Positions 4,141 through 38,100 are shown, counted from the stretch's first letter. The stretch: DNA of 64,000 nucleotides from an uncultured virus (IMG/VR IMGVR_UViG_3300030098_005893) (IMGVR_UViG_3300030098_005893:1-64000); one strand, 5' to 3'. The notes: generated from the sequence alone by a model not told the origin. Made by a program: numbers and translations.

Positions 4141-5124
4141 TTATCCGTTGCGTCCCGCCTGCTCGGTTACTTGTTCCCTCCAATACAGGGGGGCCCCAAC
4201 GAAGAATTTCTCCACACAGTCTCCCATCTTCTCCTTGTGGTGGTCATAAACCGCATTCACAGCATCGTCATCTGCGTTGGCGGTAGACCTCAGCTCGTCG
4301 TAAGCCGCATCCCACAAACCCCTCTCGTCCATTAGGCGATCAAGGTCCGCAAGAACCTCTTGGGCTTTGGGGCTCAGGTTTTCATCCTCTTCCAGCTTGG
4401 CGTGACCCTTCATGCAACGCTGGATAAGGATTGCGTCATCCATTTCTGGAGACTCCTTTTTTCTCTTGGGAGAAGCCTTTGGTTTCTCGGTCTCCCCTAT
4501 GGTGTGAAGGTGGTGTTTTGCATGCAAAAACAGATTTGTTGCAATGACCCTGTGGTTTTCCGGGGTTTGTAGCTCGGGCCTTTCTTCCAGCAACTCATCT
4601 ACCCTGTCTAAGCAGATAGCAAACCCTCTGGCAGCAAGATCAATGCTTTCATCAAACGCGCTACCCCCGGGGTTGGACGTATGGGCTGGGGGGTGGCTGG
4701 CTGCTTTAATTGCAATAGGCTTGTCCTCCTCGCTGTTCGTCGCCTTTACCCCGGGATCTCCCCCCGGAGGGAGGACGCGCATGGTCGCCTCAGGATAGAC
4801 CTTTACCACTATGGTAGGATATTGGCTCCCCTCTTTTTGCCACCTATTTACCACAAGGCCGCGCTTCTCGCCCTTGTCGTTGGTGCCAGCGGTGAGAACG
4901 ATCTCCTGCCCTTCGATTGCATCCAGAATGTGCATGGGTGCCTTCATGAGGGTGATCATGAGCTTGGTCCCGTCTTCGTCGCGGAGCAAGATGGACTGCC
5001 TGTGCTGCTGCCACTTGAGATCGTTGTCGGTTTGGGTCAGGGGAGGATACTGCTTGTCAACGGTCCCGCGAAGGGAGTCAACTGCGGTTTTGTCTGTGCT
5101 TTCCTTGATGTCTGCTAGGTTCAT
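4141..5124 (-). CDS. Hypothetical replication/recombination protein, possible N-terminal OB fold
   Basis: ATG 5124 overlaps the exonuclease stop. Beta-rich N-terminus (QSILLRDEDGTKLMITL); fold is a guess. Confidence 0.6.
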   Translation of the reverse strand: MNLADIKESTDKTAVDSLRGTVDKQYPPLTQTDNDLKWQQHRQSILLRDEDGTKLMITLMKAPMHILDAIEGQEIVLTAGTNDKGEKRGLVVNRWQKEGSQYPTIVVKVYPEATMRVLPPGGDPGVKATNSEEDKPIAIKAASHPPAHTSNPGGSAFDESIDLAARGFAICLDRVDELLEERPELQTPENHRVIATNLFLHAKHHLHTIGETEKPKASPKRKKESPEMDDAILIQRCMKGHAKLEEDENLSPKAQEVLADLDRLMDERGLWDAAYDELRSTANADDDAVNAVYDHHKEKMGDCVEKFFVGAPLYWREQVTEQAGRNG

Positions 5125-16492: not shown

Positions 16493-18313
16493 CTACCGCT
16501 TGAGCTTGTAGCCTTTCCCTTCTGCCGTTTTCCGGAGATCCCTCTCGTCCATCTCGATGATGGTGTTGAGGAGGGCTGGAAGCTCGGTGGCGATGTCAGT
16601 CACCCCGGCTGCATGTCCCTTGCCAAGGAGCCGCTCAGCGTGTTCGATCTCGCTGTCGGAGACATGAATCCCGATGTAGTAGACCTCGATCCCCTCAGCC
16701 CACGCTTCCTTGCAGAAGTCATTGGCGCTACGGTATTCGTCGGCCCCCTCATCCCATGCTCTGTGAGTTCCATTGAAGGAGCCATCAGAGAAGATGACCG
16801 CAATCCGGCGCTCCTCTCTCCGGGTTTGCAACTCCCTGACGGAGGCCATCATTGCGGCCCCGCAGCAGGTGCTGGCTCCCAGACCCTTGACGGTAGGGGC
16901 GGCAATCAATCCCTTGTCGCTCCAGCCCTTCACCTTATGGCTGCTCCCGGTGAAGGCTCCCCAATAGTTTGCAATCCCGCACTTCTCGAAAGCCCTGCGG
17001 ATAAGGTTGGCCCCGATCCACTGGCCATGGAGCCGCTGGAAGATTGCTGATAGCTTCTGGGCAAGCACAGGCTCCGTGACCTCCAGTCGGTGAGTGTGCC
17101 CCGCTTTCGAGACGTTGATGATGACCTTCCCAATCACCCCCTTGGCCTCGCCCCTGCCATGGCTCAGCCCGGCCCGGTTGCCGAAAGCCCCGGAGCAAGT
17201 GCTGCCAATGATGCAGCGGGTCTTGTCAGTGGCTCCCCCCTTTGCAATAATTTTTGCAACCTCGTTGGCGTGGTCGTGCAGCCCCACCCTCCGGAGGGTG
17301 GCCTCCACCCTCTTTGCTGCCTTGTCTCCAAAGAACTTAGTGGAGCCTTGCATGGAGCCGCTGTAGTCGAGCATAGTTGCAACGGCCACCCGGCGGTTGG
17401 TGCCCCGCAACTTGCGCTGGAAGCAGTAGGGGGAGTCAGTTGCAATCCGGACGCAGCTCTTGAGATCAAGTCTCCCGCCGCGCTGGTGGCGCTTCCGCTT
17501 GTTCCGGGCGATGGCCTCAAATGTTCTCCGGATGGTAGTAACCAGCCGGGAGAGGCCTACCCGCCAGAAGTCAAAGGACTTCTTTGTGACCTTGTCGCTG
17601 ATCTCGTATTGAGGAGCCCAGAGCGGGTCACCGCTCCCGCCTTGTAGACCCTTGATAGCTTTGAGCAGGTCCCGGTCATCTACGTGGGCTCCATGGTTGG
17701 GGTCGCCTTGCTGGCCCTCGCTCCCCTCATCGTTGCCACCGTCAGTATCCCGCTGTTCCCCGGTCAGCTCTCCCTCCTCAGGCTCCTCGCCCTCTCCGGA
17801 CTCACCTTCGCCTTGGCCCTCGCCTTGGCCTTCGCCCTCTCCGGACTCACCTTGGCCTTCGCCCTCGCCTTCGCCTTGGCCTTCGCCTTGGCCTTCGCCT
17901 TGGCCCTCGCCCTCGCCTTGGCCTTCGCCTTGGCCTTCGCCTTGGCCTTCGCCCTCGCCCTCTCCGGGCTCACCCTCGCCTTCGCCCTCTCCGGGCTCTC
18001 CCTCTCCCTCTCCCTCGCCCTCTCCGGGCTCTCCGGGCTCTCCGGGCTCTCCGGGCTGAGGCTCGGGGCCCTCAGGCTCCAGAGCCTCAATGGCGTTGAG
18101 TTCTTCACGCCAAAGCAGGCCAAGGTTTGCAGCCATGAGGATCTCATGAGCCTCTCGGGCGTCACCCGTTGCCCGGGGGAACCACGTTTGCAGGTTGGAC
18201 TTCTTGCGCCAGACTTTGCTTGCAAGGTTCTGGTCAAGGCTATTGTTGATGATCTCGGCCCTCTCGGGGGTGACGCCAATGGCGTCCCAGCTAAGTGTGA
18301 ATGAATTGGACAT
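16493..18313 (-). CDS. vWA-domain (CobT-like) protein with a Gly/Glu-rich linker
   Basis: MIDAS motif LDYSGSM, AVIFSDG, GRLDL motif; directly downstream of an AAA+ ATPase. Confidence 0.85.
   Translation of the reverse strand: MSNSFTLSWDAIGVTPERAEIINNSLDQNLASKVWRKKSNLQTWFPRATGDAREAHEILMAANLGLLWREELNAIEALEPEGPEPQPGEPGEPGEPGEGEGEGEGEPGEGEGEGEPGEGEGEGQGEGQGEGQGEGEGQGEGQGEGQGEGEGEGQGESGEGEGQGEGQGEGESGEGEEPEEGELTGEQRDTDGGNDEGSEGQQGDPNHGAHVDDRDLLKAIKGLQGGSGDPLWAPQYEISDKVTKKSFDFWRVGLSRLVTTIRRTFEAIARNKRKRHQRGGRLDLKSCVRIATDSPYCFQRKLRGTNRRVAVATMLDYSGSMQGSTKFFGDKAAKRVEATLRRVGLHDHANEVAKIIAKGGATDKTRCIIGSTCSGAFGNRAGLSHGRGEAKGVIGKVIINVSKAGHTHRLEVTEPVLAQKLSAIFQRLHGQWIGANLIRRAFEKCGIANYWGAFTGSSHKVKGWSDKGLIAAPTVKGLGASTCCGAAMMASVRELQTRREERRIAVIFSDGSFNGTHRAWDEGADEYRSANDFCKEAWAEGIEVYYIGIHVSDSEIEHAERLLGKGHAAGVTDIATELPALLNTIIEMDERDLRKTAEGKGYKLKR
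17770..18070 (-). repeat. Coding tandem repeats (GEGQ, GE, PGE units)
   Basis: Iterated ccttcgccttgg and ctctccggg units. Confidence 0.9.
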
Positions 18314-18435
18314 GATGTGAGTTGAATTGAATTGGATTGAATGTTGATAGTTTAGGTTGGAAAATTTCCTCCCCCCGGAGGGGGAGGTTGCTCACCCGCA
18401 TTGCTACGGGTGAGCCCCGTAGCATCGGGAAGTGT

Positions 18436-19989
18436 TTATTGGTCGAAGATCCAGAGATCAGCGGCCCGGAGAGCAGCGCGGCCCTCCTCCCCTGCCCGGT
18501 TGGCAAAGGTATTGAAAAGGGACTGGCGAACATCGCTAGCAGTCTCCTTGAGGCCCGGGAAGGTCATCCCGGTGTCCCGGTTGTAACCAAGCCACAGGCA
18601 CCCGGCATTGACCAGCACCCGGGTGGAGCATGGCTCCTCCAGAACTGGCTCGCTACCGTTCAGGCCGAAATGCAACGGCCTTGCAACGCTTGCCCACTTT
18701 GCAAGCAGGGTGGCCTCCGTTGTGCTGAGCGTCTCCCCGGTATCCGGGTTGCACAGTCTGCAGAGGATCTCAACCTCCTCCTCCAGAGGGAGCGGGGAGG
18801 CGATGACTGACAGCAGGCGCTGCTTCAGCGAGGGATCGAATCCCTCCCGGTTGTAGTGCCCGGCATCATCCCCAATCGAATTGGAGGTGAAGACAACCAC
18901 AAAGCCGGGAGCAGCCTTCACAACCTCCCCTGTCGGGGCAATCGTAACCTCCCGGGATTCCAGCGCATCGTTAAAGATCATGCTGGTGGCCTGAGAGAGC
19001 AGGTCCCCCTCATCGACGATGAGAACGTATCCATGCCGCATGGCATGGGTAAGGGGGCCATCGCTGTAGTAGGAGGTCCCGCCCTTGATCCCCGCTGTGA
19101 ACAGCAGCTCATCGGCCTGCAATACATCGTTGCCGGAGATGAGCTTCCATGGCAGGCCTAGCTTGTTGCAGGCCTGTTTCACCGGGAATGTTTTCCCCGC
19201 CCCGGAGCTGCCTCCCATCACCATGTGGACGCCAGCCATGAGCCAGCCACAGAAGGACTCAAACCAGCCGGAAGGCTCTTGGAACAGGGGATCGACCTTC
19301 TCGACAGGGGGAAGCTCCCGGGCTCCCTCAGCCACCCTCTGGATCACCTCCTCGGAGGGGGAGAGAGCAGTGATGGTCTCCGAAACAGCAGCCCGGAGAG
19401 CAGCCGGGGAAAGGGAGGCCCCTCCCCCGGACTTGGCAGCAGCCTCAGCAGCCTCGACTGCCTTGGCCTCGACCGCCCCCAGATCGTTACCCATCCGGGT
19501 GGCCAGAGAAGTCAGGTCGGATTGCAACTTTGCAATTGCGCTCCCGGTTTCCTCCTCCCCCTCGGAGAGGGTTGCAGCGAGGAGAGAGGCCAAGGCCTCA
19601 GCCTTGCTGCCAGCCGCCGGAACCGGAGCAGCCGGGGTGGCCTCAGGAGCCGGGCCCGTTACCGGAGCCGGGGCTGCGCTGAGATTGTCCTCAGATACCG
19701 TCTCAACCCAATTGTCCATGGTCTGGCCAACGGTTGAGAAGGCTGAGAAGTAGTTCAGGATCTCCTCTCCCTGCTTGTCATGAATCTGCGACAATAGCTG
19801 GTCCCGGGTATGCCCCCCGGCCTGTGCAAGGATCTCGAACAGGGGCCATATCCGGCTCCCGTTCCATCCATTGGCTCCCTGCCTGATATTACTGAGCGCC
19901 GGGCGCAGTTTGTTCAGGGGGTGATTACTTGGTGCGGCCTTGACCATGTTGGCCAAGACCCGTCTTGCTACTTGAATGTTGAATTTCAT
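18436..19989 (-). CDS. MoxR/CobS-like AAA+ ATPase
   Basis: Walker A GSSGAGKT, Walker B LIVDE, FTSN, DGPLT.AMR.G. Confidence 0.88.
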   Translation of the reverse strand: MKFNIQVARRVLANMVKAAPSNHPLNKLRPALSNIRQGANGWNGSRIWPLFEILAQAGGHTRDQLLSQIHDKQGEEILNYFSAFSTVGQTMDNWVETVSEDNLSAAPAPVTGPAPEATPAAPVPAAGSKAEALASLLAATLSEGEEETGSAIAKLQSDLTSLATRMGNDLGAVEAKAVEAAEAAAKSGGGASLSPAALRAAVSETITALSPSEEVIQRVAEGARELPPVEKVDPLFQEPSGWFESFCGWLMAGVHMVMGGSSGAGKTFPVKQACNKLGLPWKLISGNDVLQADELLFTAGIKGGTSYYSDGPLTHAMRHGYVLIVDEGDLLSQATSMIFNDALESREVTIAPTGEVVKAAPGFVVVFTSNSIGDDAGHYNREGFDPSLKQRLLSVIASPLPLEEEVEILCRLCNPDTGETLSTTEATLLAKWASVARPLHFGLNGSEPVLEEPCSTRVLVNAGCLWLGYNRDTGMTFPGLKETASDVRQSLFNTFANRAGEEGRAALRAADLWIFDQ

Positions 19990-19994
19990 AATAT

Positions 19995-20690
19995 GCTACG
20001 GCGGATGGCCCGGACTCATTCCGGATCACCCCATCAGCCCCCGGGTAACAAAGAGCCCCGGAGGCTGATGGGGAGACCGTCCCGGGATCGGGACAGCCTC
20101 CACTGTAATAAAGTTGCAAGGGTTATCGCTCCGGGCCCATCTGATGAGACTTGGGGGCACCTCTGCCACCTCCACCGTCTTGGCGAATCTTGCAATTGCT
20201 AACCTCTTCTGCTGCTGGCAACGAGCCGTTCCTCATTCCCTGCCGGGCAACGAACCTTTCCTTGCTGGGCCTGTCCGGGTTGGCAACGAACCGTAACCGG
20301 GGCTCAGGGTGGCTCAGGAATGAGCAGAATCTGCTGGTGAGAAGGGCACCCTTTCAGGACCTTGCTCTTCGAGGGGGAATCGCCATCTCCGTAGCGCCCT
20401 GCCTCCTACCCTCCCCGCCGTGCCTTGCTGTTGGGGACCTTCACGTTGACCCTTGGCAATGCCCTAACCCCGGGGGGGCTGTCGCTGTCCCCCTAGGTCG
20501 AAGCATGTGGCGAACGCCTTGCTGCTAGGGAGTGGGAACTGGAGGTAACCGGAACAACCGGGCCGCCTAACCCATCGGCCTCAGGGGAAGGGCCAGCCTT
20601 GCGATCCCTCTCTCCCTGACCGTTGCCGAACTGAGGCTGAAGGTGGCCCGGGAGAGCCCTGAAGCATCCCGGCTTTCGCTGGGACGGCGC
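19995..20690. ncRNA. Candidate large structured non-coding RNA or long leader
   Basis: No credible ORF; dense nested inverted repeats and repeated GGCAACGA hairpin motifs. Confidence 0.4.
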
Positions 20691-20692
20691 AA

Positions 20693-20721
20693 CTTATGGG
20701 GGAAAGAGGCCCCTGTGTCAA
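20693..20721 (-). promoter_or_regulatory. Sigma70-like early promoter
   Basis: Minus strand TTGACA-N17-CATAAG, preceded by a T-rich stretch. Confidence 0.5.
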
Positions 20722-21579
20722 CCCTGCTGGACAAAAAAATGCAACTTTCTTTCCCGCCCCTATTTTGCAAGGGCGAAACAGGCCTCCCCACTGTCCGCAA
20801 ACCCCCTCCCCGGTAGCTCTACCCATTCTCCCGGGAGGCTGAGCCCCTCTCTACCCCCCGGAGGGTAGCCCCCGCCCCCCCTACTACATACCCCCTCCAT
20901 TGCAACCCCCGGGAGGGGAGGGCCAACCCCACCCCCCGCCCCTATATCCCAGAGCAGAACTGCCGGGCGAGTCATACCAGCACACATACTCCCTACTACT
21001 GGCACACACACTCTCCCCACTACAGCAGACAGCACCCCCCGGCCTCCCTCGCTCTCCCCCCTCGCACGGCGCAATCCATGTCATCGTGCTGAGGCCCCCT
21101 CCCTGCCGTGCCACAGATGCTCCACGTGGAACAGTCGCCCCCCCATTGCAATTGCATCCATGCTGCCATGCCACCCTGCCGCCTCCCTGCCATGCCGCTA
21201 CCCCCGGAGCCATGGCCACCCGGGGAACTATCACTCCCCCTGCTGCTCCGTTGCAAGTTGCAACCAGTTGCAAGGGGCACCCCGGGATACCCGGACCCCC
21301 GGCAACGGGTCCCATGCCCCCGAGGTCTCCCCGTAAAGATACCCCCCTAAGCGGAGCGGCGTTACTATTGGGGAATATGGGACCCCTATTTTGGGACTCC
21401 GGGGATGGAACGGGACTCCAGCGTGGGACTCTACATCTGGAACGGGACTCCTGAAGTGGTTTGGGTCTGATGACCGCTGATGTGGGGTGCCGCTTCCGCC
21501 TCTCTATGGCAATGAGGCGTAGTGCTAATTTTCCCGAAAAAAAATCTTAGCCCATCCGGCTACGCCGATCTGGGCTAAA

Positions 21580-21936
21580 TTATTGCTGTGGTTGAGAGAG
21601 GGGAGGGGACTCAAGTTTGAACTCGTAGAGTTCGTCCATGAGTTTATCGACCCTTTTTTGCAACTCTGAGATATGCAGGTCCTGTCTTGTATCTGAGGGG
21701 AGTTCCCCACTTCCCCATTTTCCGGCAGGCCAAAGTTCCACGAATTGTGAATTTTTGGAGACATCCTTTCCCATCATCTGGATTTGGAAGTCGTTATGCT
21801 GGACCTGAGAGTTTAGTCCTGACGCCCACCAGACTATTGCGGCGGCTTGGAGTGCCAGTCCTACTAGGAGAGGGACAAATGCAAAGCCAGCCCCATCGCG
21901 GCTATCGCTTTTGTCCTCTTTTGCCATGAACGGCAT
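21580..21936 (-). CDS. Single-TM protein with a coiled coil
   Basis: Hydrophobic segment FAFVPLLVGLALQAAAIVWW. Confidence 0.6.
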   Translation of the reverse strand: MPFMAKEDKSDSRDGAGFAFVPLLVGLALQAAAIVWWASGLNSQVQHNDFQIQMMGKDVSKNSQFVELWPAGKWGSGELPSDTRQDLHISELQKRVDKLMDELYEFKLESPPLSQPQQ

Positions 21937-26113: not shown

Positions 26114-29100
26114 ATGGCTGACATGGAGGAATCTTACAAAGATGCGCCTGTCGAAAATCCCTATGGGAACGACAGCATGGACGACTTTCAAGCTGGCATT
26201 GCAAGGCACCAGCGAAACATAGACGCTCTTGTTAGGGAGCAGGAGCAGAGAAAAGCGGAAAGAAAGCGGCTAGAAGATGCTCGTCAGGCGGAAATAGACC
26301 GCGTCGCAGGGGAACGCGCAAGAAGGCAAAATGAAGTAATCCTGCAAAGAGCCAAGGAGGACGGCCTTGATGATTACCTAGTCCCAGACAGTGAAGGAGT
26401 CCTTAGGTCGTCTTTAACAGAGGATCAGATTGCAAGACACAGAGCGAATAAAAAGCTGGAGGAAGAAGAAATGGCAAAGAGGTCTCTTGCAAAAGAGCAG
26501 GCCTCTCGCACTGACCCCGGCAGCCTTAAAGATCAGCTATCTCAAATAGACGTTTTATCTGAGGCCAAAAGAAAATCCGAGGAAGAGTCCCTGCAAGCCA
26601 ATAGAGACCAAATACGATACTTGGAGGCATCGGTCTGGGAGGAAAAAGACCAGCTAATTTCGGGAGTCAGGGAAAAGATTAGGGCTTCAGAAAATGCCTT
26701 AAAAGCTGATGACGAGGCCATTGATCAAAAGGCAGCAATTGAAGCTGAAATACTCAGAAACCAAAGAATCGCAGAGGGGTTCCCTGAGGACCTTGCTAGG
26801 GATGTAGACGGGAGGAGGACTTGGACGGCTCCCCCGGCGGAGGATGACCCGGAGGCGGGAGGGAAGTGGCTGGACGCATATAACCGCGAGGTTGAAATAA
26901 ATAACTCCCGGCGAGAGCAAATCAGCGAAACTGAGAAAAAGGCGGCAGACGCATATCAGAAAAGGGTAAAGGAACTGGAAAGCTCTTTTGTTGAATGGGC
27001 TGAATCAGGGGCGACCCCAAAGCAAATTGCTGAGGCAAAAGAGACTTTGCAAGACGAGTGGGGGAAGGCCACGGCTGAATACCTGAAGGAAAGGTATAAG
27101 TTTGAGAGCGAACTCAAGAAGTCTGAGGCTAGGTCGAAATCCCTAGACCTTCTACGGCCAATTGTTGGTGATTACCTTGAGGATCTCAAGGGGTATTACC
27201 GGGGGAAAGAAGAAGAAGCTGAAAAAGCGCAAAAGCAAAAAAGAGACGCAATTGCCGACAAGTTAAAAAAAGAATACTATGAGACGTTTGGCAAAATTCC
27301 CCTTGATGGAAGGGAGTATGTGGACCCCGCCGATCCAGTTCTAAATGAGATATTCAAGGAGCAACAGAAACTCATCAAAAAAGGGTGGGAGGGTGTCCCC
27401 GATGATTACGAACATCTCGGTCCTTACGCCGCCAGTATGGGCCCAATTGGGAGCAAAGAGGACAAAATTGATTACGCGCAATGGAGACTAAGCGAGCTTG
27501 ATGCCGCGTTTGGCCGCCGTATTGAGTTCCTTATGGCAAGGAACTCTGAGGTGATTATGTCTCTTCAGGAAATCCTGTGGAAAATGGGCAGCACATCAGC
27601 CCTCCCCGGATCTCCATCTTTGCTAAAGCAAATGGGGAAGTATAACTTTGACTCAAACTTGGTATTAGAGAGTCACAGGTTCCCTTTGTATAACAAAGAG
27701 GACTCGCCCGTTTTTGATCGAGTTGAAGCTGGCGTAGCCACGGTTCCCCTACAGATAGCGGCCAACATCTCCCTTGCGTTTGGCTACGGGCTGTCAAGGC
27801 TGGTTGGTCATACTGCTCGGACGGTCAAAAAGGCAGCCCCCGGAACACAGTATAAGGAATACCGTAGATTTGACGAATGGCTTGAGAACAGCGGCCTCAC
27901 TCACAGTGAGGCAAAGCACGGAATGCAGGAAGTGCTTAAAGGCTGGAAAAAGTGGGGGAAGCCTAATGAGGAAATGGCAAGGTATAGAGCTGATGGAGTA
28001 ATCCTGCTGAACCCTGATCTAAATGTGTTGGATAGGGGCCTATACAAAAAGGCTATAGAGTCTACGGATGCTCCGAGCTTTATCAAAAAGCATTACCTTG
28101 GCGAAGGGGCACAGGAAAGGATAAGGAATGTTTACGCTTCGTCAATTGAGCATCAGGCCAACGCGGCTTATGCGGGGCCCGGGGGTATCCCGATGCCGAA
28201 TGAGTGGATGAAAGAGGCATATCCCGACAACTCTTTAAGCATCATGGATGATGTTGAGGAGATGGCGAACAAGAGGGCTGAGCTAAGGGAGCAGATAGGC
28301 ACTCTAGATGAATCAGACCCTGCTCTCACCGGACTCAAAAAAGAGGAAGAGGAGCTGACCAAGAACATCGAGATGATGCGAGACGTTGCAAAAAACGCTC
28401 GCGCTGAATGGAGAAAAAACACTCCCGAGTATTCCGAGCAAATAGAGGAATGGCTGCGACTTTATGGCAGAGACAAGCCTCTTGCTTATTTTACTAGGCC
28501 AGCCCGGAGCTTGGCCTTGGGCGGGGGCAAGTTCCTGCAAACTATCACCGGGGTTGGGGCCATTCTTGAAGTTCCCGGCGCTCGCAATGCCACATTGTCT
28601 TTAGCTGATGGCATAGAAGAACAGCGCGTGGCCCGTGATTTTGCGGGAGGGGCCATTCCCGTAGTAAGCGCAATTACAGACGTTATAGGAGAAGAGGGCC
28701 CATCTCTTGTGTTCTCTCTTATTCCGGGCACCGCGCTTGGCGCAAGAGCTGCCGCTCTCGTAAGGAAGCAGGTCGTAGCAGGCGCCCTGACCAAAAAAGC
28801 AGCCTCCAAGCAAGTTGCAAAAGCAGGCCTCAGGGGGTCCGCTATTGGCGCTGGAGTGCAGTCTACGGGGCTTTCATGGGCTCAATACTTTAACGATGCA
28901 AAAAGGGTCCGCGAGGAAGAGCTTGGCAGGCCGCTAACTGAATCTGAGCTAAACGAACTTGCAAAACTCCCCGCAGTGCAAGGTAGAGCAGTGATGACAG
29001 GTCTTTTGACGGCTGGAACCGTCAAGGCGTTTGGATTCACAGGAACTGAGGTAGTTTGGAGAAAGGGAACAAACATTACTGTTCGTGATTGGTGGAGGCA

Positions 29101-32100
29101 TGTGGCATCAAAAGCCAATACGACCCCAAAAGAGGCGTGGCAGAAGTGGGCGGGAGCCGTTAAGGCCATTGCAAAACCGGGCATTTGGGAGGGTCTTGAA
29201 GAAGGCACAGACCAAGTCATTTCTTCTCTCGCTTTTGACAGAGGGATTTCCATGGGAGAAGCCCTTAGTGGGGGAGGGAAAGCAGCTATCGCGGGACTGA
29301 TTCTTGGATCGGGAATAGGAGGGTTGATGTCCACCCAGCAAACGGGCGCGATGGCCGAAAACCTATCCAACCCGGATACGGCTCTGGAGGCGTTGAAAGA
29401 CGTTTTTGGCAAAACTGATTACACTCAAGGGGAGGTTGAAGATGCTTTTGAGCTGATAAACTACCCTGCCAATGCCCCGAGCGATGCAGATGCAGCAGCT
29501 CGAAAGCTACAAGCCGGGATATTGGCAAATAGAAGCCTCGCAGAGGCAGAAAGCCGAGCGAAAGCGGCAGTTAAACTTCATAACACAAAGGGCGAGCCAG
29601 AGGCCGCAGAGGCTGCGCTTCAAAAACTGAAAGAGGTCAATGCCGCTAAAGGGCTCCTCAAAATTGCAAGCGGCAAGGTCAATAACGAGCTAGACCTCAC
29701 CTCAGAAGAGCTTGAGGGCGTAAACAAGGTAGTCGATGACTATGGCTCTCCCCTTCTCAGAGAGGTTAATGGCCAGCTTGTAATAACCAAAGCGGGGACA
29801 AATCTCATAACAGAGATATCTCCTGACGCGGCAAGTGAGCTTGTTGCCTTAAATGAAGAGGCAAGGCTAAGGCAGATCAGGGAGGCCTCAGCCCCCAAAG
29901 TAGCCGAAACCGATCCCAAAGTAGCCAAAACCGATCCCAAAGTAGCCAAGCCCAAGGAGGAAGCCGAAACTGCCCCTAAAGAAGCCGAAACTGCTCCTAA
30001 AGAAGCCGAAACTGCTCCTGAAGTAGCCAAAACCGACCCTAAAGTAGCCAAACCTGCGGAGGCAGCAGCCAAGCCAGACGTATCCAAGATAAAAGGAGCG
30101 GCTGTTGAGGGCGGCAGACAGGTTATCCGCAACTCGAAAGGGGAGCATTATTCCAAACGCGCAAGCGCCCAGATACGGCTGGATAGGCTAATCAAGGACA
30201 AGAAGCTGCCTGCTACGGGGTTTAGTGTTGTCGAGGAAGAGGCAGGGAAGTGGATCATTGCAGAGGATGTAAAGGGTGAAGAGGCCGCTCCCTCCGGAGG
30301 GAAGAAGAAGTGGAGGGTCACAATAAAAGGAGTAGGGGAAAAGACGAGAGCCGTTGAGGTTGAGGCCGAAACCAGAACTGATGCCATTGCAGCCGCCGCA
30401 AAGGAAGCAGACACGGCAAAGGGTGAAACGGTGGTTGTGGCTTCTGCTACGCAAATTGAGACGGATGCTCCCGCGACTCAGGAAGCCCCGGAGGAGGCCC
30501 CAGAGGAGACGAAAGAGCCAGAGCCAGCCGCCCACAAGGTGGCCAAGGTTGAGGACGACGCCCCAGACGCAAAGGGGCGTAGGCGCTTCACGGCATATGA
30601 TGAAAAGGGAAACCTTTTGGGGTCGATTGAATATGTAATCAAGGACGGGGTTGCTATCATCAAGGGCCTCGGAGGGGGAGGCGGCAGCAAGGCCAAGACA
30701 AAAATCAGGGGAGGGATGCGGCCCACTTTTGACGCCTTCTTGGATAAACACAAGGTGGTGCAAACGGGGGAAAGCACAGATAATGTATCTAATGCTGGGC
30801 TAAAATTCTTCTATGATCTTCACAAGACGGGAGAATACGAATTCACCCCAGTAAAAGGAACCGCCGTAGAATCTAATTCTATGGCCATTCGGCCAAAAGG
30901 CTGGAAAGGGGAAAAGGGGCTCTCGGCGCTAAAAGCCTTCAGAAGAGTCTTTGGTGGAGATACGGCTTCGGGCAGGAAAGGGGACCTAGCGATTCACACC
31001 GCTGGTGAAATGATCAGGCATCCCCACGCGCTCATTCAGAAGAAGGAAATAGCTCCCGAGGCGAAGGAGGCCCCAGAGGAGGCCCCAGAGGAGACGAAAG
31101 AAACGGCATCTGTAAGGCAAAGGCTACAAGAGCTAAATCTGTTTAATAGGGTTGTCGATGAAACGGAGGAAACCCCTCTCCCCAAGGGCAAGCTATACTC
31201 GATAGACAAGAATGGTAATGTTATACTGAGCCGCAAAGTATCCAGCTTCTCTAAGACAAGGCAGTCAGAGATTAGTGCGGAGATTGTTGCCGAACGGGGA
31301 GCGGCGGGAGCCTTGAGCCAGAAAGAAGGGGAATTCTGGTTCAGCATGCTTCCTAAGCATGAACAAGAGTCCATTGCGCGGGAGGCCCGTCTAAAGCATA
31401 ACATGGGCAAAGACGCGAGCGATGCAGATGTAGTAAGATACATGCTGGCGAAAGGCATGACCCTGAAGATGCTTGAGACGCTTAGCAGGGGAGCCCGAAA
31501 GCTAAGAAAGGGCGACGAAGAAGCGCACAGAACGGTCTTGGGTTATTTCCTCAGGTATCTCAGGAGGTTTGCCGACAGAATAAGAGCTATCACCACAGGG
31601 GACTCATTACTTGCAAGAAGGTTGCAATTTTATGAGAAAATGGCCTTCGCGTTTATTGCGGAGCATACAAACGCAAGAACTCTTGCCTCTCTTGGGATTG
31701 CAATTCCTGACAGCAGGATATCTGACCGCAGAGACGTTGTCCTTCATCCAAACATCAGGAAGACAAAAGATGGGAAATATGAAGTAACTCTTCCGGGTGG
31801 AACTAAGCAAAAGTTCAAAACACTTGCTGAAGCTCGTGAAAAAAACGCCAACAAATACAGAGACCAAACTCTAAACGCACTAAGTATAGCAACAGCCGCG
31901 TTGCGTAGAGGCGGGGGGTTGAGCGCAGACGAGCTTGAGGCGAAGATTGCAATCATTAAGAAAAAAATCTCTACAATTGCGGCAGTAAGGCCCTTTATTA
32001 CAAAGGAGTCTTTATGGGCCAAGTTCACTGTGGTATTTGTAGACGGTGAGTATACGTCTCTGATTGAAGAATACAAAAAGGCCAAGCCGAAAAGCGAAAG

Positions 32101-35100
32101 GGCACAAAAATTAGAAGACGCTATAGCTGCCTATTTGGGCAAGTTGGTCAAACTTAATGAAGACATCACTCGGGATCTGGAAAACGCAACGCTCAGGGAG
32201 AAGTCTCGTGGGGCTCTGGCAGCCAGTAGGATGGTTGCCTCCTTCGCCGCCGATGTGGCAGATGGAAACCTCGCCCAAACAGAGCCAATGCGACAGGCAA
32301 GACGAGAGTTCTTGGCTTTGGTCGGAAAAGGGCCTGTTCAGGAAAGATTACGCAAATTGCCAGAGCTTGTATTACGACAAGAAAGAATAACTGAAAGAAT
32401 AGCCGCTCTTGCCACTGAGGAGGAAGCCGTAGGAGGCCTTCCTCTTTTCGATGACGCAGCAGACCCCGCCGAGATGGCCAACCTGAAAAAGGAGCTGGGT
32501 CAGGTTACCAATGATATAGCTTCAGCCCATGCCGAGCTGGACGCAGATTATGCCGCAAAAGTAGGAAGGCTGGCCCCGCGCAAAACCCAAAAGGCTACGA
32601 CTAGAGGAATCTCGCAACGGGTTAGCGTTCCGGGCAGGGGGCTCAAGTCCGTCATGGGACTTACGAGAGAAGCTGATGCCTCAACCATACTGCATGAGTT
32701 TGTCCACGTATTGCAAAAAACTCCGGACGAAACAAACCCAGATCAATCTCTTTGGGATTCCGCTTTGGGTAGAAAAAATGCAGCCAAGCTAAGAAAGTGG
32801 GCCAAATCGGTTAATCCCGCCGAACCTGAAGAGGCAGAAGCGGAGGCGATGGAGACCTACCTTAAAGAAGGAAAAGGAAGAGGGCTTGAGGTTGCCCCTT
32901 CCCTGCTTGACGCCTTTTCAAGGGTCGCCTCGGCTATTTATGGGGTCTACGGGGACACCATGAGGGAAAAGGGCGGGGGATACGACATACCTGAGGAAAC
33001 AGTGGCGAGTCTTGATGCGCTTTTTGCGGACCCAGTAATAATCGGGAACTCAGTAACCGCTAACGCCGCCAAGATTAGGGATCAGGTCCAACGCTTCTGG
33101 GATGGAGCGATGCCGATAAGCGAGGAAGAGGTCATTCTTGGTCTTCCAAACGGAGCCGTTCAAGTTGGCTTCAAAAAAGCAAAGGTAGCCAAACAGCTTA
33201 TTGAAAAGAACTACCGAGCCTTTTTCGGGGACAGCGCAAAGGTCGTTGAGTATGAGGGCAAGTTTTATGCGGGGCTGGATATAAACAAAGCCTTCGGGGA
33301 GACTGAGAGAGGATTTGGTCCAAGCCTGCAAAGAACCAAGGCGAAGAGGCCTAACGCTGGCAACGATAGATTCCGGGTTGGGACCTCAAGATCGGACTCT
33401 ACAAGGCGGCGAGACACTGCCAGCAACATTGGGATAACAACAGTAAGTGACGATCTTCTGGCAAGGCAAATGGAGAAGTTTGATTACGATCACCTTCCTC
33501 AGAGCATTCGGTCAGAAAGAAACCCGCAAACAAAAAGGGAAAAAGCAATCGAGTGGATGGTCGAAAATATCTTGGCCGTTCATGACGCTCTTCCAAAGGA
33601 GGTAAGAGAGAGGGCGGCCCAGTGGTATGATGGGGCTAGCAAGCTCGCAAATAAGTTAGCCAAGAAATATAAATACACCAAAGTTCAAACCGCTGGCGTT
33701 ATTGCTGTTCTTTCCCCTCAGAATGGTTGGTTCAAAAATGCATCACAAGCCGAGAAGGTTATTGATATTTATGCAAATCACCGGAACGAGGTGATTGATC
33801 CCAAAATCCACGGGGAAGCCATGGAGCTAATAATCTCCAAGGCACAAGCGGCACAGTCGGCCAAGAAAAAGGTTGTAGAGGGGGAGACCCCTAGACAGAA
33901 GGCGCTGAGGCAAGCCTACAACAGGAGGCTCGATGAGCAGAAGCGAGATCAGCGACGAGCCATAATGGAAGGCATAACCGGGTATACTATTAACCAGCTA
34001 GGCAGAATAGACTCGGAACCTCAATCGTGGGCCCTGAGAGTGCTGGCTACGCATTACTGGTCTTCAGAATACAATGTTCTAAGCCCTGAGGGGGATATTT
34101 TGTGGGTGCAGAGAAAGAACCCCACAAAAGCTCAATTGAGAGCCGGAGAAGAGGGCAGCCCATCGACGCATGGCTGGGGTTCCGCCCAAGAAATTGGCAA
34201 TGCAATTGCAATTTTGAAAAATGGCAGTCTTGAAAACCTGCACAGAATACTTGGCAATGAACACAAGGTCCGGAGCTTCTTTAACAACATAGTTGCGCCC
34301 AACAGCGCAATGGGGGACGTAACCATGGATACGCATGCTGTGGCGGCGGCTCACTTGATGCCATGGGGGATATCAGCTATTGCCGTGGATCATAACTTTG
34401 GCGGGAGAGGGATACCGAATTCAAAAGTCGCTGAAGGGGTTTCAGGGCTTTACCACTTATACGCTGATGCATACAGAGAGGCCGCTCGGCGTAGAGGGAT
34501 ACTTCCCCGCGAAATGCAGTCAATTGCTTGGGAGGGCATTCGACTCATCCACCCCAGCGAACAAAAAAAACCAAAACATCTAGCCGAGGCCACTAAAACG
34601 TGGAAGAATAACAGCAATGCCAGAGCAAGAAAAATCATCATCAACAGAAGTAGATCCTTCTATCCTGAATGGTTTGTCAGAGAACAAACTCCAAGAACTA
34701 AAAAGGTCACAAAAGGGACTAAAGAAGATGGGTCTCGATTGGAGCCTTCCACAAGTCGCACTACTGGAGCTAAAAGATCCAGAAGACGAGGACGAAGCGC
34801 CCCCAGCCTTCAGCGCGAGAAGGAACTCACCTTCCCGGGAATTCAAAAAGTTGCGGACGGCCCATCGCAAAAAGTTATCGAAACGAGCTTCGGAACACTT
34901 GGAAAAACGGGCGAAGATGCCTACACTTTCCTTACAGAAGTTTACGGAACAAGCGAAGCGTTTAATGAAATCCTAAGGGATACGGGGTTTGCCCCCGGAA
35001 TGTTCACTTACCTGTATCCTAAGGTCAAAAAGGCCGAAAAGGATATATTAAGGGACTGGGCAGAAGAAAACAATTTGCTAAATGACTTTGTCGGGTTCTT

Positions 35101-38100
35101 CCACGAACACGCAAAAAACGGACAGGGAGGATATGAGAACTTTGTTATCCACAAAGGCAAATATGTGGAGAAAGTATATCATGGTGACGCCTCTCTGCTA
35201 GAGCGGCTCCACCAGATTCTATGGCATAACTACTATTTCCCCGAGGCGGCTTATGAGGTTTTGGGGTTCATGGCCAAAGATGACGATTTTTTTATTCATG
35301 TCAGGCAGCCAGCCCTTACGGAGGATCAAGATGGAGAACACCTTACCAAGGAAGAGGCTAAAGAATTCTCATACGATATAAATGACGATGTCATCTTGAT
35401 GGGAGACGGCCAAAAGCCAACAAGGCAGGGAAGGCTGGTCGCAGCGATGGCCGAAATGGGGCTAGTCCCCATTAGCAACACTACCTTTTTTGACCCAGAG
35501 GAAAATGTAATTATTTCCGATCTATATCGCTATAATTTTGCAATAGAGCTTGGGAGGCCCATCCCATTTGACCCGGCTTTGCGCTCAGGAAAATATGGGA
35601 ACAACAAGTTTGGGGGTGTTTTGTTGCAAGACAGCATGATTCAGTTGCTGAAGAAAAAGAACCTTCTTGCAGACCTAACATCCCGCGAAGAAGTCGAGGC
35701 TGGGCCTCACCATCAACCAGAATCGGGAATAGACGTAGGGGAGTATATTGAAGAGGTTACTGCAAAACACATGACCGAACATGCTCCCGCAGAGCATGAA
35801 ATATCTCTTAATGGGCAAAGCGTTTCTAAAGGCCGCCTCACTGGCCTTTTGGGTTCCTCTAAGCCCTCCCTTCAGAAAGCACCGGAGTCTTACCGCAAAT
35901 TGGGGGACCCCCCCGAACGCACTAATTGGAAAGACAACGAAACCCTCCGCAGGGAGGTTGACGATCAATGGTTGGAGCTTGCAAAGGAGAGCGGCCACAC
36001 AACTGTTAAAGGCGAGATGGGCGTTGTCCCAGATGCCGAGATCGGGGGCGAGAAAAGGAAGATGCTCGCAAAGTTCACAAGAAGGTTGGCCGAGATGGCC
36101 GGACTCGTGCCGTCCCCCCATTTGCCTCCGACCTTGTTCCATGGGACAATGCGTCAATTTACGGCATTTAAGGTCAGGGATGACCACACCCTTGTTGGGG
36201 AAGACGGTGACATGGTCCTGTCCAACTATTGGGGGAACGGAGTTTACCTTACTACTTCAAACCAAGACGCATATCACAACTACGCTAGAGTTGGCCCAGA
36301 CATGAGGGCCGAGGCTAAGCAAAGAGCCAAGGAAATACTAGAGGCTCCTACAGTATTTCAATCGTCGCAACTTGCAAGAGCGGGACAGCGAGGGGTGACT
36401 CGGGAACAGCAAGCCTATGTTATTGCGCTTGCAGAGCTAAGCCTTGATGCCGAAGGCTCCTTTGTTCATGAGGTATATGTCCAACTTGAAAACCCAGCTA
36501 TCATAGGCCCGGATGAGCGAGGGGTGCATGTGAGGTTCAGTCCTGCCGTTGACGTAAATCACCCTGTCTTAGACGCAGTTGAGGCGGTAAGGCAAAACCT
36601 TGAAGAGAAGCATGATGTAGTAGCCCCAAGAATGGAAGCGATGGCCAAGTTGGCCGAAATCTTGGTGGATAGTCGAGGGGCCAGCTATGAAAGAGTTGGC
36701 AACTTCCTGAGAGACAACCTTCTCTATATCGCCTTTGAAAAGGGGGCTATGGCCACCAAAGTGCCGCTTGATCCTCAAGAAATGGCCAGAAGGGTATTTG
36801 CTGCCCTTGGGCACGATGGAATTATTGACCGGAGAGCTGGCAGCAAGTTCAGGAAGATGAAGGGGGTGGACCCCGATACGGCGCATGTCCTTGTCTTCCG
36901 CCCCGAACAAGTGAAATCGGCAGATGCTGTCACCTACCACCCGATCACCAAGGAAATCGTCTTGCCTTCACAGCGGTTCGATTTCACAAGCTCGCAGATT
37001 AACTTGCAAGGCGGGGTTGATGAAAGAGGAGCAAGAGCATCAAGATCGGTTGGAGTCAGAAAGGCTCTTGAGGAGATTGACGAGGTTAAGGGGTGGAATA
37101 GAAATCCTCTCAATACATGGGAAATAGTTACAGACACCGGAGTTGCGTTTGAGGTCCTCAGGTCCAAAGAAAACCACATCTACCTCAAGGCAATTGCAAC
37201 AGTTGGCGAGAGGAAAAAAGGCCACGCAGGAAATGTCCTTGAGAAGCTCAAGCAAATTGCTGACAAACATGACGTAGGGATCGAGCTGTATCCTAGCGCG
37301 TTTATTGAACGCACCGGAGAAAGGGGAGACGAGCTAACGCAAAAAGAGCTGGAAAACTTCTACAAGAAGCGAGGATTCGTTAGACAAAAATCAGCATATG
37401 GGGGCCCGGGGTCAGAGTTTTTCTACCACAAAAACCCGTTAGCATTTAACCCCCACATTAACGAGGACCCGCAGTCGGCAGAAGAGGCAATAGAGTCTCT
37501 CAGGCTTGCAAATAGGGGTGAGGACCTAAGCCAGATGGATACTGGCATGTTTTCAGAGGACTTTGAGGAGTCGTATTACGAGCCATGGTCTTTTGAGGTG
37601 CCGGGGAGATTCCTTATCGCAGACAGCAGCCCTGAGCATATAGCAGACCTAGATAGGTATATCGGGGCCATGGAAGACGCGGCCATAGAATATAGCGGCT
37701 CTGAATCTGTTGACCCGAACTTTGAAGACTACATTGATCTCCGCATCAGGTTGATGCAGGTGTTGAGTGACTTTCTTCAGGAGCCAAGTTTCTCAAGAGG
37801 TTTCCCGCCCACACGTTCCGGAAGGCCATCATTGCAACGAGGCATTGATGACGCTGACGCAGATAAGCCGTCTGACCTTCAAGAGTCATCCACTTTTGAT
37901 ATAGACAGGATGCTGAAGCTGGTTGGCAAGAACATGTATGGCACCAACCCGGCAGGGATTCTGGGCAAAGAGCTGTTCCAAAACTCCGTGGACGCTGTCA
38001 TGAAGAAGCAGAAGGAGGAGGAGGCTAAAATGCCAGCTAGGATAGAACAGTTCGTCCGTGACGAATGGTCTAAAGCTGGAGTGTTGGAGGACCAAGTAGA

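What the first reader, a model, noticed from the sequence alone, without database searches (positions are those of the whole stretch)
19995..20690. ~700-nt hairpin-dense non-coding element between the early promoter and the AAA+/vWA operon
Seen: no credible ORF. Stems include ccccatcagcccccggg/cccggaggctgatgggg (20029-20073), gtcccg/cgggac (20079-20094), ctcattcc/ggaatgag (20232/20317), nested ggccgcct/aggtggcc and cggcctcag/ctgaggctg (20561-20648), and tcccggc/gctggga (20667-20684). Three GGCAACGA motifs occur; two form the same bulged GCAA-tetraloop hairpin with different stems (gctgGCAAcgagc, ggttgGCAAcgaacc). CCTTGC recurs five times. Strand is unresolved: the promoter is on minus but several G-T wobble pairs favour plus. 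Inference: an undescribed large structured RNA, regulatory leader or ssDNA structure.
Basis: partly seen in the sequence, partly recalled or inferred. Interest (0 to 1): 0.72.

Follow-up and report, generated by a model that had tools for sequence, protein, structure and literature searches.

The report
Large structured leader RNA in marine phage
A roughly 700-base non-coding stretch in an uncultured marine phage appears to fold into a conserved, multi-domain RNA that sits directly in front of an ATPase gene pair, matches no catalogued RNA family, and has an unknown role.

Summary
The stretch is real, non-coding and conserved. The window is a 64.9-kb marine phage record. Positions 19995-20690 are the downstream half of a 1.55-kb gene-free gap between a terminator (about 21562-21536, minus strand) and the start of a MoxR-class AAA+ gene (19989, minus), which is followed by a VWA gene.

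Four other sequences from three related lineages carry the same stretch. Substitutions show no codon periodicity. Their consensus fold has 208 pairs, 30 of them with compensatory double changes, against 7.0±2.5 in column-shuffled alignments. The upstream half of the gap shows no such excess (14 against 11.8±3.3).

The single-sequence folding energy is not better than shuffles (z -1.4 and -1.6). The exception is a 3' module of three adjacent hairpins (z -5.7) that ends 20 nt before the start codon. No Rfam family matches.

Best reading: a new, large structured 5' leader, or an RNA processed from it, of the AAA-VWA operon. No transcript evidence was obtainable, and the function is inferred.

The parts
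21536..21576 (-). Intrinsic terminator ending the upstream operon: a hairpin followed by T8, just after the stop of the 118-aa gene 21580-21936
   Evidence: The terminator scan lists the stem 21562-21548 with tail AGATTTTTTT. The sequence is conserved in L010, L005 and L002.
21375..21470 (-). Array of GAGTCCC-type direct repeats: GGAGTCCCGTTCCA twice, plus shorter copies. Probably DNA-level protein-binding sites.
   Evidence: GGAGTCCC lies at 21393, 21412 and 21444 on the minus strand. See repeat families D3 and D8. L002 keeps a rearranged array. This half shows no covariation excess.
21119..21273 (.). Cluster of palindromes and TTGCAA sites: three tandem TTGCAAC (21251-21273), TGCAATTGCA (21145-21157), and GTTCCA-NN-TGGAAC (21119-21132) whose centre varies while the arms are kept
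   Evidence: The palindrome centre reads CG, TG or CA in different relatives.
20693..20803 (-). Nearly invariant block holding TTGACA (20721-20716), a 17-nt spacer, and the weak -10-like CATAAG (20698-20693). This is the inferred promoter of the structured RNA.
   Evidence: TTGACA is identical in 5 of 5 sequences. The -10-like hexamer varies. The sigma-70 scan does not list the site.
20445..20693 (-). RNA domain 1: a multi-branched fold. Its helices 20665-20651/20615-20578, 20574-20572/20535-20533 and 20532-20525/20496-20489 carry most of the compensatory changes.
   Evidence: helices 3, 4, 8 and 12. The single-sequence MFE z is only -0.17.
20119..20423 (-). RNA domain 2: a long, nearly invariant outer stem enclosing a hairpin with a U(GAAA)G loop, an arm closed by CUCAUUCC/GGAAUGAG, and a GGCA-GAGG-UGCC hairpin. 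It is the most conserved part, at 0.96-1.00 identity to L010 and L009 and 0.82-0.89 to L002.
   Evidence: There are 3 compensatory pairs in helix 20323-20311/20244-20233. The outer stems never vary, so they are untested. MFE z is +1.41.
20217..20298 (-).
   Evidence: The third pair reads C-G, U-G or U-A in different copies and relatives, and is never mismatched (pair 512:520). L010 and L005 have a fourth copy; L002 keeps one.
20010..20100 (-). 3' module: three back-to-back hairpins of 12 bp, 17 bp and 6-8 bp, with no U-tract, ending 20 nt before the AAA start codon
   Evidence: MFE is -68.6 kcal/mol on minus (z -5.68) against -56.0 on plus. The 17-bp helix has 4 compensatory pairs. The 12-bp helix has three invariant G-U pairs on the minus strand. 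In L002 the 17-bp hairpin, the small hairpin and the CCGUAGCA leader are duplicated on either side of an inserted ORF.
19994..20001 (-). CCGUAGCA motif just upstream of the start codon. It is kept in all relatives and in both L002 copies, and is predicted to pair with GCACGG at 20423-20418.
   Evidence: The predicted long-range helix never varies, so it is untested (helix 17).
18436..19989 (-). MoxR-class AAA+ ATPase gene (517 aa), the first gene downstream
   Evidence: Pfam AAA_5, 5.4e-17. Sequence matches to midasin, NorQ, CbbQ and CobS. Fold match to NorQ Z 11.0 and CbbQ Z 10.9, from a low-confidence model with mean pLDDT 48.4.
16493..18313 (-). VWA-domain partner gene (606 aa) with a long acidic GE/GQ repeat
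   Evidence: VWA_CoxE and CobT_C matches, both below Pfam's cut-offs (20.2 against 26.4 bits; 18.6 against 21 bits). Translation.

Best explanation
Window 19995-20693, read on the minus (gene) strand, encodes a conserved RNA of about 0.7 kb. It has two multi-branched domains and a 3' module of three adjacent hairpins.

The most likely reading is that it is the 5' leader of the AAA(MoxR)-VWA operon. Transcription of the upstream genes stops at the terminator near 21562-21536. A new transcript then starts from the invariant block around 20721-20693 (inferred). The leader folds as it is made and acts in cis on the genes behind it.

Two further steps are inferred from anatomy only. First, the two perfect helices of 12 and 17 bp lie side by side next to the start codon, which looks like a site for a double-strand-specific RNase or a stability element. 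Such a site would either free or mask the unusually GC-rich, structured translation start of the AAA gene. Second, the strongly conserved core, with its three or four identical mini-hairpins, is a probable protein-binding platform that sets when or how much AAA-VWA is made.

Shown: conservation, non-coding nature, covariation, and fixed position before a start codon.
Inferred: the transcript itself, its start, any processing, and the regulatory role.
For: - **Conservation.** The stretch is present upstream of the AAA gene in 4 of 4 lineages with context (window/L007, L002, L009, L010). It is also in L005, whose contig ends before the gene.
- **Identity.** Window to L010 identity is 0.893 in the non-coding stretch (n=1593), against 0.711 in the AAA gene. 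Window to L002 is 0.757 against 0.711. Core blocks reach 0.96-1.00. Even the invariant-protein AAA core is only 0.81-0.87 identical at the nucleotide level.
- **Not coding.**, with a positive control.
- **Covariation.**
  - 208 consensus pairs; 970 of 1011 cells paired.
  - 30 pairs with changes on both sides, against 12.3±2.6 in 500 pair shuffles (0 of 500 reach the observed value) and 3-8 in six slid controls.
  - 7.0±2.5 (largest 17) in 115 column shuffles, where the consensus energy also gives z -6.9.
- **Negative comparison.** The upstream half of the same gap shows no excess: 14 against 11.8±3.3 in 78 shuffles.
- **Strand.**
  - All genes of this arm, and the terminator, are on minus.
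  - Strand-specific helices carry 10 (minus) against 4 (plus) compensatory pairs, and shared helices have 11 G-U against 5 A-C cells.
  - The 3' module folds to -68.6 on minus against -56.0 kcal/mol on plus.
  - The mini-hairpin pair passes C-G, U-G, U-A.
- **Tie to a start codon.** The module ends about 20-30 nt before an ATG in every case, including both copies in L002.
- **Unusual start region.** The other listed genes have A/C-rich, unstructured, SD-less upstream regions. The AAA gene is the exception.
Against: - No transcript evidence of any kind.
- Domains 1 and 2 fold no better than shuffled sequence.
- Only five sequences from four lineages are available, and L005 is nearly the same as L010.
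- The structure was predicted from the same alignment that was then used to count covariation. The column-shuffle control does not keep dinucleotide content.
- The opposite strand folds almost as well: consensus -238.9 against -242.0 kcal/mol, with 23 against 30 compensatory pairs.
- The promoter is weak and unverified.
- The long outer stems of domain 2, and the helix that would mask the start region, never vary, so they are untested.
Confidence: 0.5

Rival explanations
1. A stand-alone large 'ornate' non-coding RNA. It would be released from the operon transcript at the tandem hairpins and act in trans. Possible roles are a partner or substrate of the MoxR-VWA pair, a protein sponge, or a self-assembling RNA like ROOL or GOLLD.
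For: The size (about 0.6-0.7 kb), the multi-domain fold with covariation and the very high conservation of the core exceed what simple leaders need. The 12- and 17-bp helices could stabilise a 3' end. The RNA, AAA and VWA lie in one GC-rich island of 0.60-0.63, against about 0.5 elsewhere. Large phage RNAs of unknown function exist (PMC12286853, passages read).
Against: There is no terminator with a U-tract at its 3' end. The 3' module is tied to a start codon and is duplicated together with it in L002. No Rfam match. No tRNAs nearby. No RNA evidence.
Confidence: 0.25
2. Part of the phage replication origin. A G-rich transcript, or extruded single-stranded DNA hairpins, would prime or open the origin, as RNA II does in ColE1. 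The repeat arrays upstream would be initiator binding sites.
For: The gap lies in the replication arm, together with the DnaB, primase, SNF2 helicase and exonuclease genes. Its upstream half is an array of direct repeats and palindromes without RNA covariation. The gene strand is G-rich: 0.39 G in the upstream half and 0.32 in the leader.
Against: There is no AT-rich unwinding stretch. GC skew is confounded by transcription direction. Covariation with G-U intermediates points to RNA folding rather than to DNA sites. Nothing links the RNA 3' end to a DNA start.
Confidence: 0.12
3. There is no functional RNA fold. The stretch would be a conserved DNA regulatory region kept similar by recombination between phages, and the apparent covariation would come from alignment and from fitting a structure to few GC-rich sequences.
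For: Single-sequence energies are ordinary. Only four lineages are available. Mosaic exchange is evident: there is a sharp identity drop at the AAA start, and the hairpin top differs between L005 and L010, which are otherwise 99% identical. Both strands give similar consensus folds.
Against: The compensatory excess is absent from the equally conserved upstream half analysed the same way. Double changes occur in three different lineages and in several helices.
Confidence: 0.1
4. A hidden protein-coding gene, or a gene read under another genetic code.
For: Long open frames exist on both strands, for example 125-130 aa on plus. These are expected in sequence of 63% GC.
Against: The frames are broken or shifted in L002. 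Many indels are not multiples of three. Substitutions have no third-position bias, unlike the AAA gene. There are no Pfam or PHROG hits for the 5 ORFs tested.
Confidence: 0.02

Closest known systems
GOLLD and ROOL large ornate RNAs of phages and prophages (PMC12286853, passages read)
   Same: Phage-encoded, several hundred nucleotides long, multi-domain, non-coding, and of unknown function.
   Different: No match to any Rfam model, even at E up to 10. Those RNAs often lie near tRNA islands, whereas this window has no tRNA. This RNA abuts a start codon like a leader and is known from only four lineages.
Long phage operon leaders with a double-strand RNase site before the first gene: the lambda N leader with nutL and an RNase III hairpin, and the T7 inter-genic RNase III sites (recalled, no call)
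   Same: A promoter-proximal structured leader with long, near-perfect hairpins immediately upstream of the first gene, and no U-tract.
   Different: About three times longer. No boxA or boxB sequences and no N-like protein were identified. Cleavage is untested.
Cobalamin riboswitch leaders of cob genes (recalled association)
   Same: A structured leader in front of CobS/CobT-like AAA and VWA genes (phrog_249, CobT_C).
   Different: No match to the cobalamin model or to any riboswitch model. The element is far larger than a riboswitch.
ColE1 RNA II primer (recalled)
   Same: A G-rich, folded RNA of about 0.5-0.7 kb, transcribed towards replication functions.
   Different: There is no evidence for an origin or an RNA-DNA hybrid site here. 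It is followed by a protein gene start.
Promoter-stem-loop cassettes that flank mobile genes in T4-type phages (recalled)
   Same: In L002 a small ORF is bracketed by two copies of the hairpin-plus-leader unit. This suggests the hairpin unit acts as a recombination or cassette boundary.
   Different: No sequence relation was tested, and there is no promoter in the repeated unit.

Membership tests
Any Rfam 15 family (4227 models, including GOLLD, ROOL, HEARO, group I/II introns, riboswitches and self-cleaving ribozymes) | Covariance-model score at or above the family's gathering score | tested here: not met
   There were 0 matches in the whole window at gathering. At E up to 10 in 19800-21800 there were 11 weak matches. 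The best was mir-305, at 26.9 bits against a gathering score of 66, on the long hairpin.
GOLLD / ROOL | Frequent location near tRNA islands in phages and prophages (PMC12286853) | tested here: not met
   ARAGORN finds 0 tRNA genes in the 64-kb window.
Conserved structured RNA (general) | Compensatory base-pair changes above null expectation | tested here: met
   30 pairs, against 12.3±2.6 (0 of 500 shuffles), 3-8 in slid controls, and 7.0±2.5 with a largest value of 17 in 115 column shuffles.
Conserved structured RNA (general) | Folding energy lower than dinucleotide shuffles | tested here: not met
   Whole stretch z -1.43 and -1.62. Domain 1 z -0.17 and domain 2 z +1.41. Met only by the 3' module, z -5.68.
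Intrinsic terminator (for the 3' hairpin module) | GC-rich hairpin followed directly by a U-tract | tested here: not met
   The hairpins are present but no T-run follows. The one terminator-like hit at 20066-20054 takes the loop of the 17-bp hairpin as its tail. A true example lies upstream at 21562-21536.
Double-strand-specific RNase (RNase III-type) processing site | About two turns of near-perfect double helix | tested here: met
   Helices of 12 and 17 bp lie directly adjacent and pair in 100% and 95.3% of cells.
Double-strand-specific RNase (RNase III-type) processing site | Cleavage at the site in vivo or in vitro | not testable with these tools
   No RNA data are available.
Protein-coding gene | Conserved open frame and third-position bias of substitutions | tested here: not met
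   with the positive control on the AAA gene.
Type III toxin-antitoxin RNA repeats (ToxI-like; features recalled) | Tandem near-identical repeats of about 34-36 nt upstream of an endoribonuclease toxin gene | tested here: not met
   Only a 17-nt core is repeated, at 76-88% identity and with spacings of 29 and 36 nt. The downstream gene is a MoxR-class AAA+.
5' leader of the AAA-VWA operon | Transcribed on the gene strand and continuous with the mRNA | not testable with these tools
   No RNA data are available. The position and the fixed distance to the start codon are consistent with it.

The most novel reading that the evidence does not exclude
This is a new class of large ornate phage RNA of about 0.6-0.7 kb. 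It would be cut from the operon transcript at the tandem 12- and 17-bp hairpins and work as an RNA in its own right. It could be the RNA partner or client of the phage MoxR-VWA remodelling pair, or a self-assembling particle in the manner of ROOL and GOLLD. Its three or four identical UCGUU-loop hairpins would serve as repeated contact points.
Probability: 0.2. Interest if true: 0.8.

Novelty: new member of a known kind. Interest (0 to 1): 0.55.

Why it matters
Structured RNAs longer than about 400 nt are rare, and most known ones have turned out to have unusual biology, such as ribozymes or RNA-only cages. The phage is seen in marine metagenomes of 8 studies.

If the fold is real, this would be a new large RNA tied to a MoxR-VWA pair. 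These pairs are common in phages, and their role there is poorly understood. The RNA would give a concrete handle on how that module is controlled or what it acts on.

If the fold is only a leader with a processing site, the finding is an ordinary though unusually large regulatory element.

Tried and rejected
- **RNA evidence.** No RNA holder is listed among the 24 runs. The one RNA run laid, X21, gave 0 contigs. This says nothing either way. The three DNA runs laid (X14-X16) gave only fragmentary variant contigs and no new full-length sequences.
- **More homologues.**
  - INPHARED phages: no match.
  - Two genome contigs pattern scans: 0 hits.
  - Viral pattern scans returned only the two known contigs.
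  - Five plus three further loci (L011-L014, L016; L021, L022, L024) share only the 21- or 17-mer and were dropped as chance matches.
  - Protein-based scans with the AAA alignment and with the 344-aa upstream protein found no new records.
- **N4-type single-stranded hairpin promoters.** Considered because of the giant virion ORF. No virion RNA polymerase signal appears in Pfam or PHROGs for its four pieces.
- **Cobalamin riboswitch before CobS/CobT-like genes.** No match.
- **Plus-strand promoter.** A site at 19965-19992 scores 9 of 12 but is not conserved in L010, so it was set aside.
- **RNA-binding hint in the VWA protein.** The PDB hits to RG-rich chains come from its acidic GE/GQ repeat and are spurious.
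- **Fold of the AAA protein.** The model has mean pLDDT 48.4 and confirms only the MoxR-type AAA core. The confident N-terminal helical domain (residues 1-100) was not searched on its own.
- **Earlier findings of this scan.** None for this genome or sequence.
- **Literature.**
  - One search on large structured phage RNAs listed 9 papers.
  - I saw passages of PMC10690425, whose candidates average 67 nt. Its supplements were not opened, so whether part of this element is among its 8495 candidates is open.
  - I saw passages of PMC12286853.
  - A search on TTGCAA led only to a -35 variant listed in PMC4331800 (passages).
  - I do not claim that the element is absent from print beyond these searches.

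Full report
**Setting.**
- The window is the first 64,000 bases of a 64,943-base virus record, rated complete and with no end repeats.
- It is a tailed phage. Genes found:
  - DnaB, a Toprim primase and an exonuclease.
  - An SNF2 helicase, a small HTH regulator and an SU10-type portal.
  - A major head protein.
  - A 5,900-aa ORF carrying 'polyvalent protein' kinase and ADP-ribosyltransferase domains.
- Near-identical DNA occurs in marine metagenomes of 8 studies.
- Genes from 26204 down to 1 lie on the minus strand, and those from 26114 upward lie on plus.
- The finding (19995-20690) is the downstream half of a gene-free gap, 19990-21579.
  - On the far side, the 118-aa gene 21580-21936 (minus) ends and is followed by a canonical terminator: stem 21562-21548, then T8.
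  - On the near side, a 517-aa AAA_5 gene starts at 19989.
- That ATPase belongs to the MoxR class. It matches midasin, NorQ, CbbQ and CobS by sequence. By fold it matches NorQ (Z 11.0, rmsd 3.3, 147 aligned) and CbbQ (Z 10.9), from a low-confidence model with mean pLDDT 48.4.
- It is followed by a 606-aa protein with weak VWA matches, below Pfam's cut-offs.

**Checking the observation.**
- The claim of unusual hairpin density does not survive the simplest test.
  - The 696 nt fold to -309.6 kcal/mol on plus (z -1.43) and -308.7 on minus (z -1.62), with 20 shuffles each.
  - Domain 1 (20445-20693) gives z -0.17, and the domain 2 core (20119-20412) gives z +1.41, with 200 shuffles each.
  - Sequence of 63% GC folds well by chance.
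- The exception is 20005-20105. Three adjacent hairpins there reach -68.6 kcal/mol on minus (z -5.68, 0 of 200 shuffles as good) and -56.0 on plus (z -5.22).
- The three GGCAACGA copies and the five CCTTGC copies are present.
- Only 2 of the 5 CCTTGC sites are invariant among relatives.

**Relatives.**
- Protein and DNA-pattern scans found the same gap in L002/L008, a 44-kb viral contig (AAA protein about 73% identical).
- They also found it in L009 and L010, two metagenome contigs (AAA about 72-73% identical).
- L005 has it on a viral contig that ends just before the AAA gene.
- L007 is identical to the window.
- Sources.
- All further scans gave nothing, or only chance matches that I removed after BLAST.
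- The comparison therefore rests on five sequences from four lineages, and L005 is 99% identical to L010.

**Non-coding but constrained.**
- Window to L010 identity is 0.893 over the gap (1,593 aligned positions), against 0.711 over the AAA gene.
- Window to L002 identity is 0.757 against 0.711.
- Part of this contrast is mosaicism. The first 450 nt of the AAA gene are only 0.46-0.69 identical.
- L005 and L010 differ mainly in the top of the hairpin next to the gene start.
- Even so, window 20281-20469 is 0.96-1.00 identical to L010 and L009 and 0.82-0.89 to L002.
- That equals or exceeds the nucleotide identity of the AAA core (0.81-0.87), whose protein sequence is invariant.
- Substitutions in the gap show no codon periodicity in any 300-column window against L002, L010 or L009 (all p>0.2).
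- The same test on the AAA gene gives counts of 110/90/226 and 119/94/230 by codon position (p=3e-17 and 4e-16).
- Open frames in the gap shift or break in L002.
- Many indels are not multiples of three.

**Structure.**
- RNAalifold on the gene strand of 19985-20700 predicts 208 pairs, 30 of them with a change on both sides that keeps the pair.
- In the pair count, 970 of 1,011 cells pair (95.9%).
- The 30 double-change pairs compare with 12.3±2.6 in 500 pair shuffles (0 of 500 reach 30) and with 3-8 when partners are slid by 1-3 columns.
- The structure was derived from this same alignment, so I also shuffled alignment columns within classes of gap pattern and conservation and refolded. In 115 shuffles:
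  - Consensus energy was -192.6±7.1 against -242.0 observed (z -6.9).
  - Compensatory pairs were 7.0±2.5, largest 17, against 30 observed.
  - This null does not keep dinucleotide content, so the energy z is generous.
- The upstream half of the gap (20690-21545) is equally conserved and was treated the same way. It gives 14 compensatory pairs against 11.8±3.3 in 78 shuffles, and an unfavourable covariation term.

**Anatomy on the minus strand.**
- Domain 1 (20693-20445) is a multi-branched fold. Helices 20665-20651/20615-20578, 20574-20572/20535-20533 and 20532-20525/20496-20489 carry most of the double changes.
- Domain 2 (20423-20119) has long outer stems that never vary and are therefore untested. 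These enclose:
  - A hairpin with a U(GAAA)G loop.
  - An arm closed by CUCAUUCC/GGAAUGAG, where L009 has CUCUCUCC/GGAGAGAG.
  - Three mini-hairpins G-G-Y[UCGUU]R-C-C at 20292-20282, 20256-20246 and 20227-20217. Their third pair reads C-G, U-G or U-A, and is never mismatched. L010 and L005 carry a fourth copy, and L002 keeps only one.
- The 3' module (20100-20010) has a 12-bp hairpin with three invariant G-U pairs, a 17-bp hairpin with four compensatory pairs, and a 6-8-bp hairpin.
- The motif CCGUAGCA follows the module, and the ATG lies 20 nt after the last hairpin.
- No U-tract follows, so this is not a canonical terminator. The same phage does use canonical ones.
- In L002 the 17-bp hairpin, the small hairpin and the CCGUAGCA leader occur twice, bracketing an extra 116-aa ORF of no known family. 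The unit therefore travels with a gene start.

**Strand.**
- The two strands fold almost equally well as consensus: -242.0 against -238.9 kcal/mol, with 30 against 23 compensatory pairs. 99 pairs are common to both folds.
- Evidence favouring minus:
  - Helices found only in the minus fold have 10 Watson-Crick-to-Watson-Crick double changes, against 4 for plus-only helices.
  - The shared helices have 11 G-U against 5 A-C cells.
  - The 3' module is 12.6 kcal/mol more stable on minus.
  - The mini-hairpin pair evolves through a U-G intermediate that would be an A-C mismatch on plus.
  - Gene direction and the upstream terminator agree with minus.
  - It competes with a minus-strand helix that pairs in 45 of 45 cells, with one true double change.
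- I put minus at roughly 0.8.

**Surroundings.** The upstream half (20700-21535) looks like DNA-level control sequence. It holds:
- An array of GAGTCCC-type direct repeats.
- Three tandem TTGCAAC.
- The palindromes TGCAATTGCA and GTTCCA-NN-TGGAAC, the latter with a variable centre.
- A nearly invariant block of about 100 bp with a perfect TTGACA (5 of 5 sequences), 17 nt before a weak, variable -10-like hexamer.
- The sigma-70 scan does not list that site. The 'early promoter' is therefore plausible but unverified.

**Mechanism.**
- The RNA always sits between a terminator and the AAA start.
- Its 3' module keeps a fixed distance to a start codon, even when duplicated.
- The AAA start region is GC-rich and structured, whereas the other listed genes have A/C-rich, SD-less, open upstream regions.
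- From these three points I read it as a cis-acting leader (confidence 0.5).
- The adjoining 12- and 17-bp helices fit the anatomy of a double-strand RNase or stability site, like those in front of lambda N or between T7 early genes (recalled).
- The conserved core with repeated identical hairpins fits a protein-binding platform.
- These last steps are inferred from anatomy only.
- Rivals:
  - A stand-alone large RNA acting in trans (0.25).
  - An origin or primer function (0.12).
  - No RNA function at all (0.10).
  - Coding (0.02).

**Comparison and novelty.**
- No Rfam family matches at gathering in the window, or at E up to 10 in the gap. I therefore do not file it under GOLLD, ROOL, a riboswitch, an intron or a ribozyme.
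- It resembles GOLLD and ROOL in size class and phage origin only (PMC12286853, passages). It differs in context, with no tRNAs, and in abutting a gene start.
- A survey of IMG/VR structured RNA candidates reports elements averaging 67 nt (PMC10690425, passages). I did not open its supplements, so I cannot say whether pieces of this element are listed there.
- I rate it a new member of a known kind: a large structured phage leader or non-coding RNA.
- The evidence for a conserved fold is good but thin. There is no evidence yet for a transcript or a function.

Noticed in passing
whole window 1-64000: The palindrome TTGCAA occurs 167 times against 24.05±4.72 expected, and no shuffle of 100 exceeded 37. 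It is the commonest hexamer of the genome. It has no flanking context and occurs in all three codon phases. Its density is about the same inside ORFs (2.57/kb) and outside them (2.82/kb). The relatives show 2-3.2/kb. It looks like a genome-wide DNA-level signal of unknown role.
   Followed up: partly
window, 13 distinct sites, e.g. 16480, 18372, 20855, 45988, 51379: The GC-rich palindrome CCYTCCGGRGG gives 20 matches against 0.37 expected. It lies both inside genes and between them. On the gene strand several copies form C(UCCG)G-type hairpins after stop codons.
   Followed up: partly
window 18314-18435 (minus), between the AAA and VWA genes: Two mutually exclusive hairpins share the segment CCCGUAGC. 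They are followed by the hairpin CCUCCCCC-UCCG-GGGGGAGG and a U-rich run. The stems change in a compensatory way in L002 and L010. It looks like a small attenuator or switch between the two genes.
   Followed up: partly
L002 4440-5001: An extra 116-aa ORF (4535-4885; no PHROG family, Pfam not searched) is inserted between the RNA and the AAA gene. It is bracketed by two copies of the 17-bp hairpin, small hairpin and CCGUAGCA leader, like a gene cassette.
   Followed up: partly
window 26114-43816 (+): A single 5,900-aa ORF directly upstream of the portal gene. It has Kinase-PolyVal, a sub-threshold ART-PolyVal match, and DUF7178 domains. It is a giant 'polyvalent' protein.
   Followed up: no
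window 17000-21500: A GC-rich island (0.60-0.63, against about 0.49-0.55 elsewhere) covers the VWA gene, the AAA gene and the non-coding gap. This suggests one co-inherited module.
   Followed up: no
window, starts of the 42 listed genes: The start regions lack Shine-Dalgarno sequences and are A/C-rich (for example AACAACAACAACAATG). This points to a host with SD-independent initiation. The AAA gene start is the structured exception.
   Followed up: no
window 16493-18313 (minus), residues about 80-180 of the VWA protein: An acidic low-complexity repeat of about 100 residues (GEGEGQ and similar) precedes the VWA domain.
   Followed up: no
L005 / L010 against the window, alignment A3 columns 1620-1660 and the AAA start: There is a mosaic boundary at the hairpin module. 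L005 and L010 are 99% identical, but the top of the 17-bp hairpin in L010 is of the L002 type. Identity to the window also drops from about 0.9 to 0.5-0.7 right at the AAA start.
   Followed up: partly
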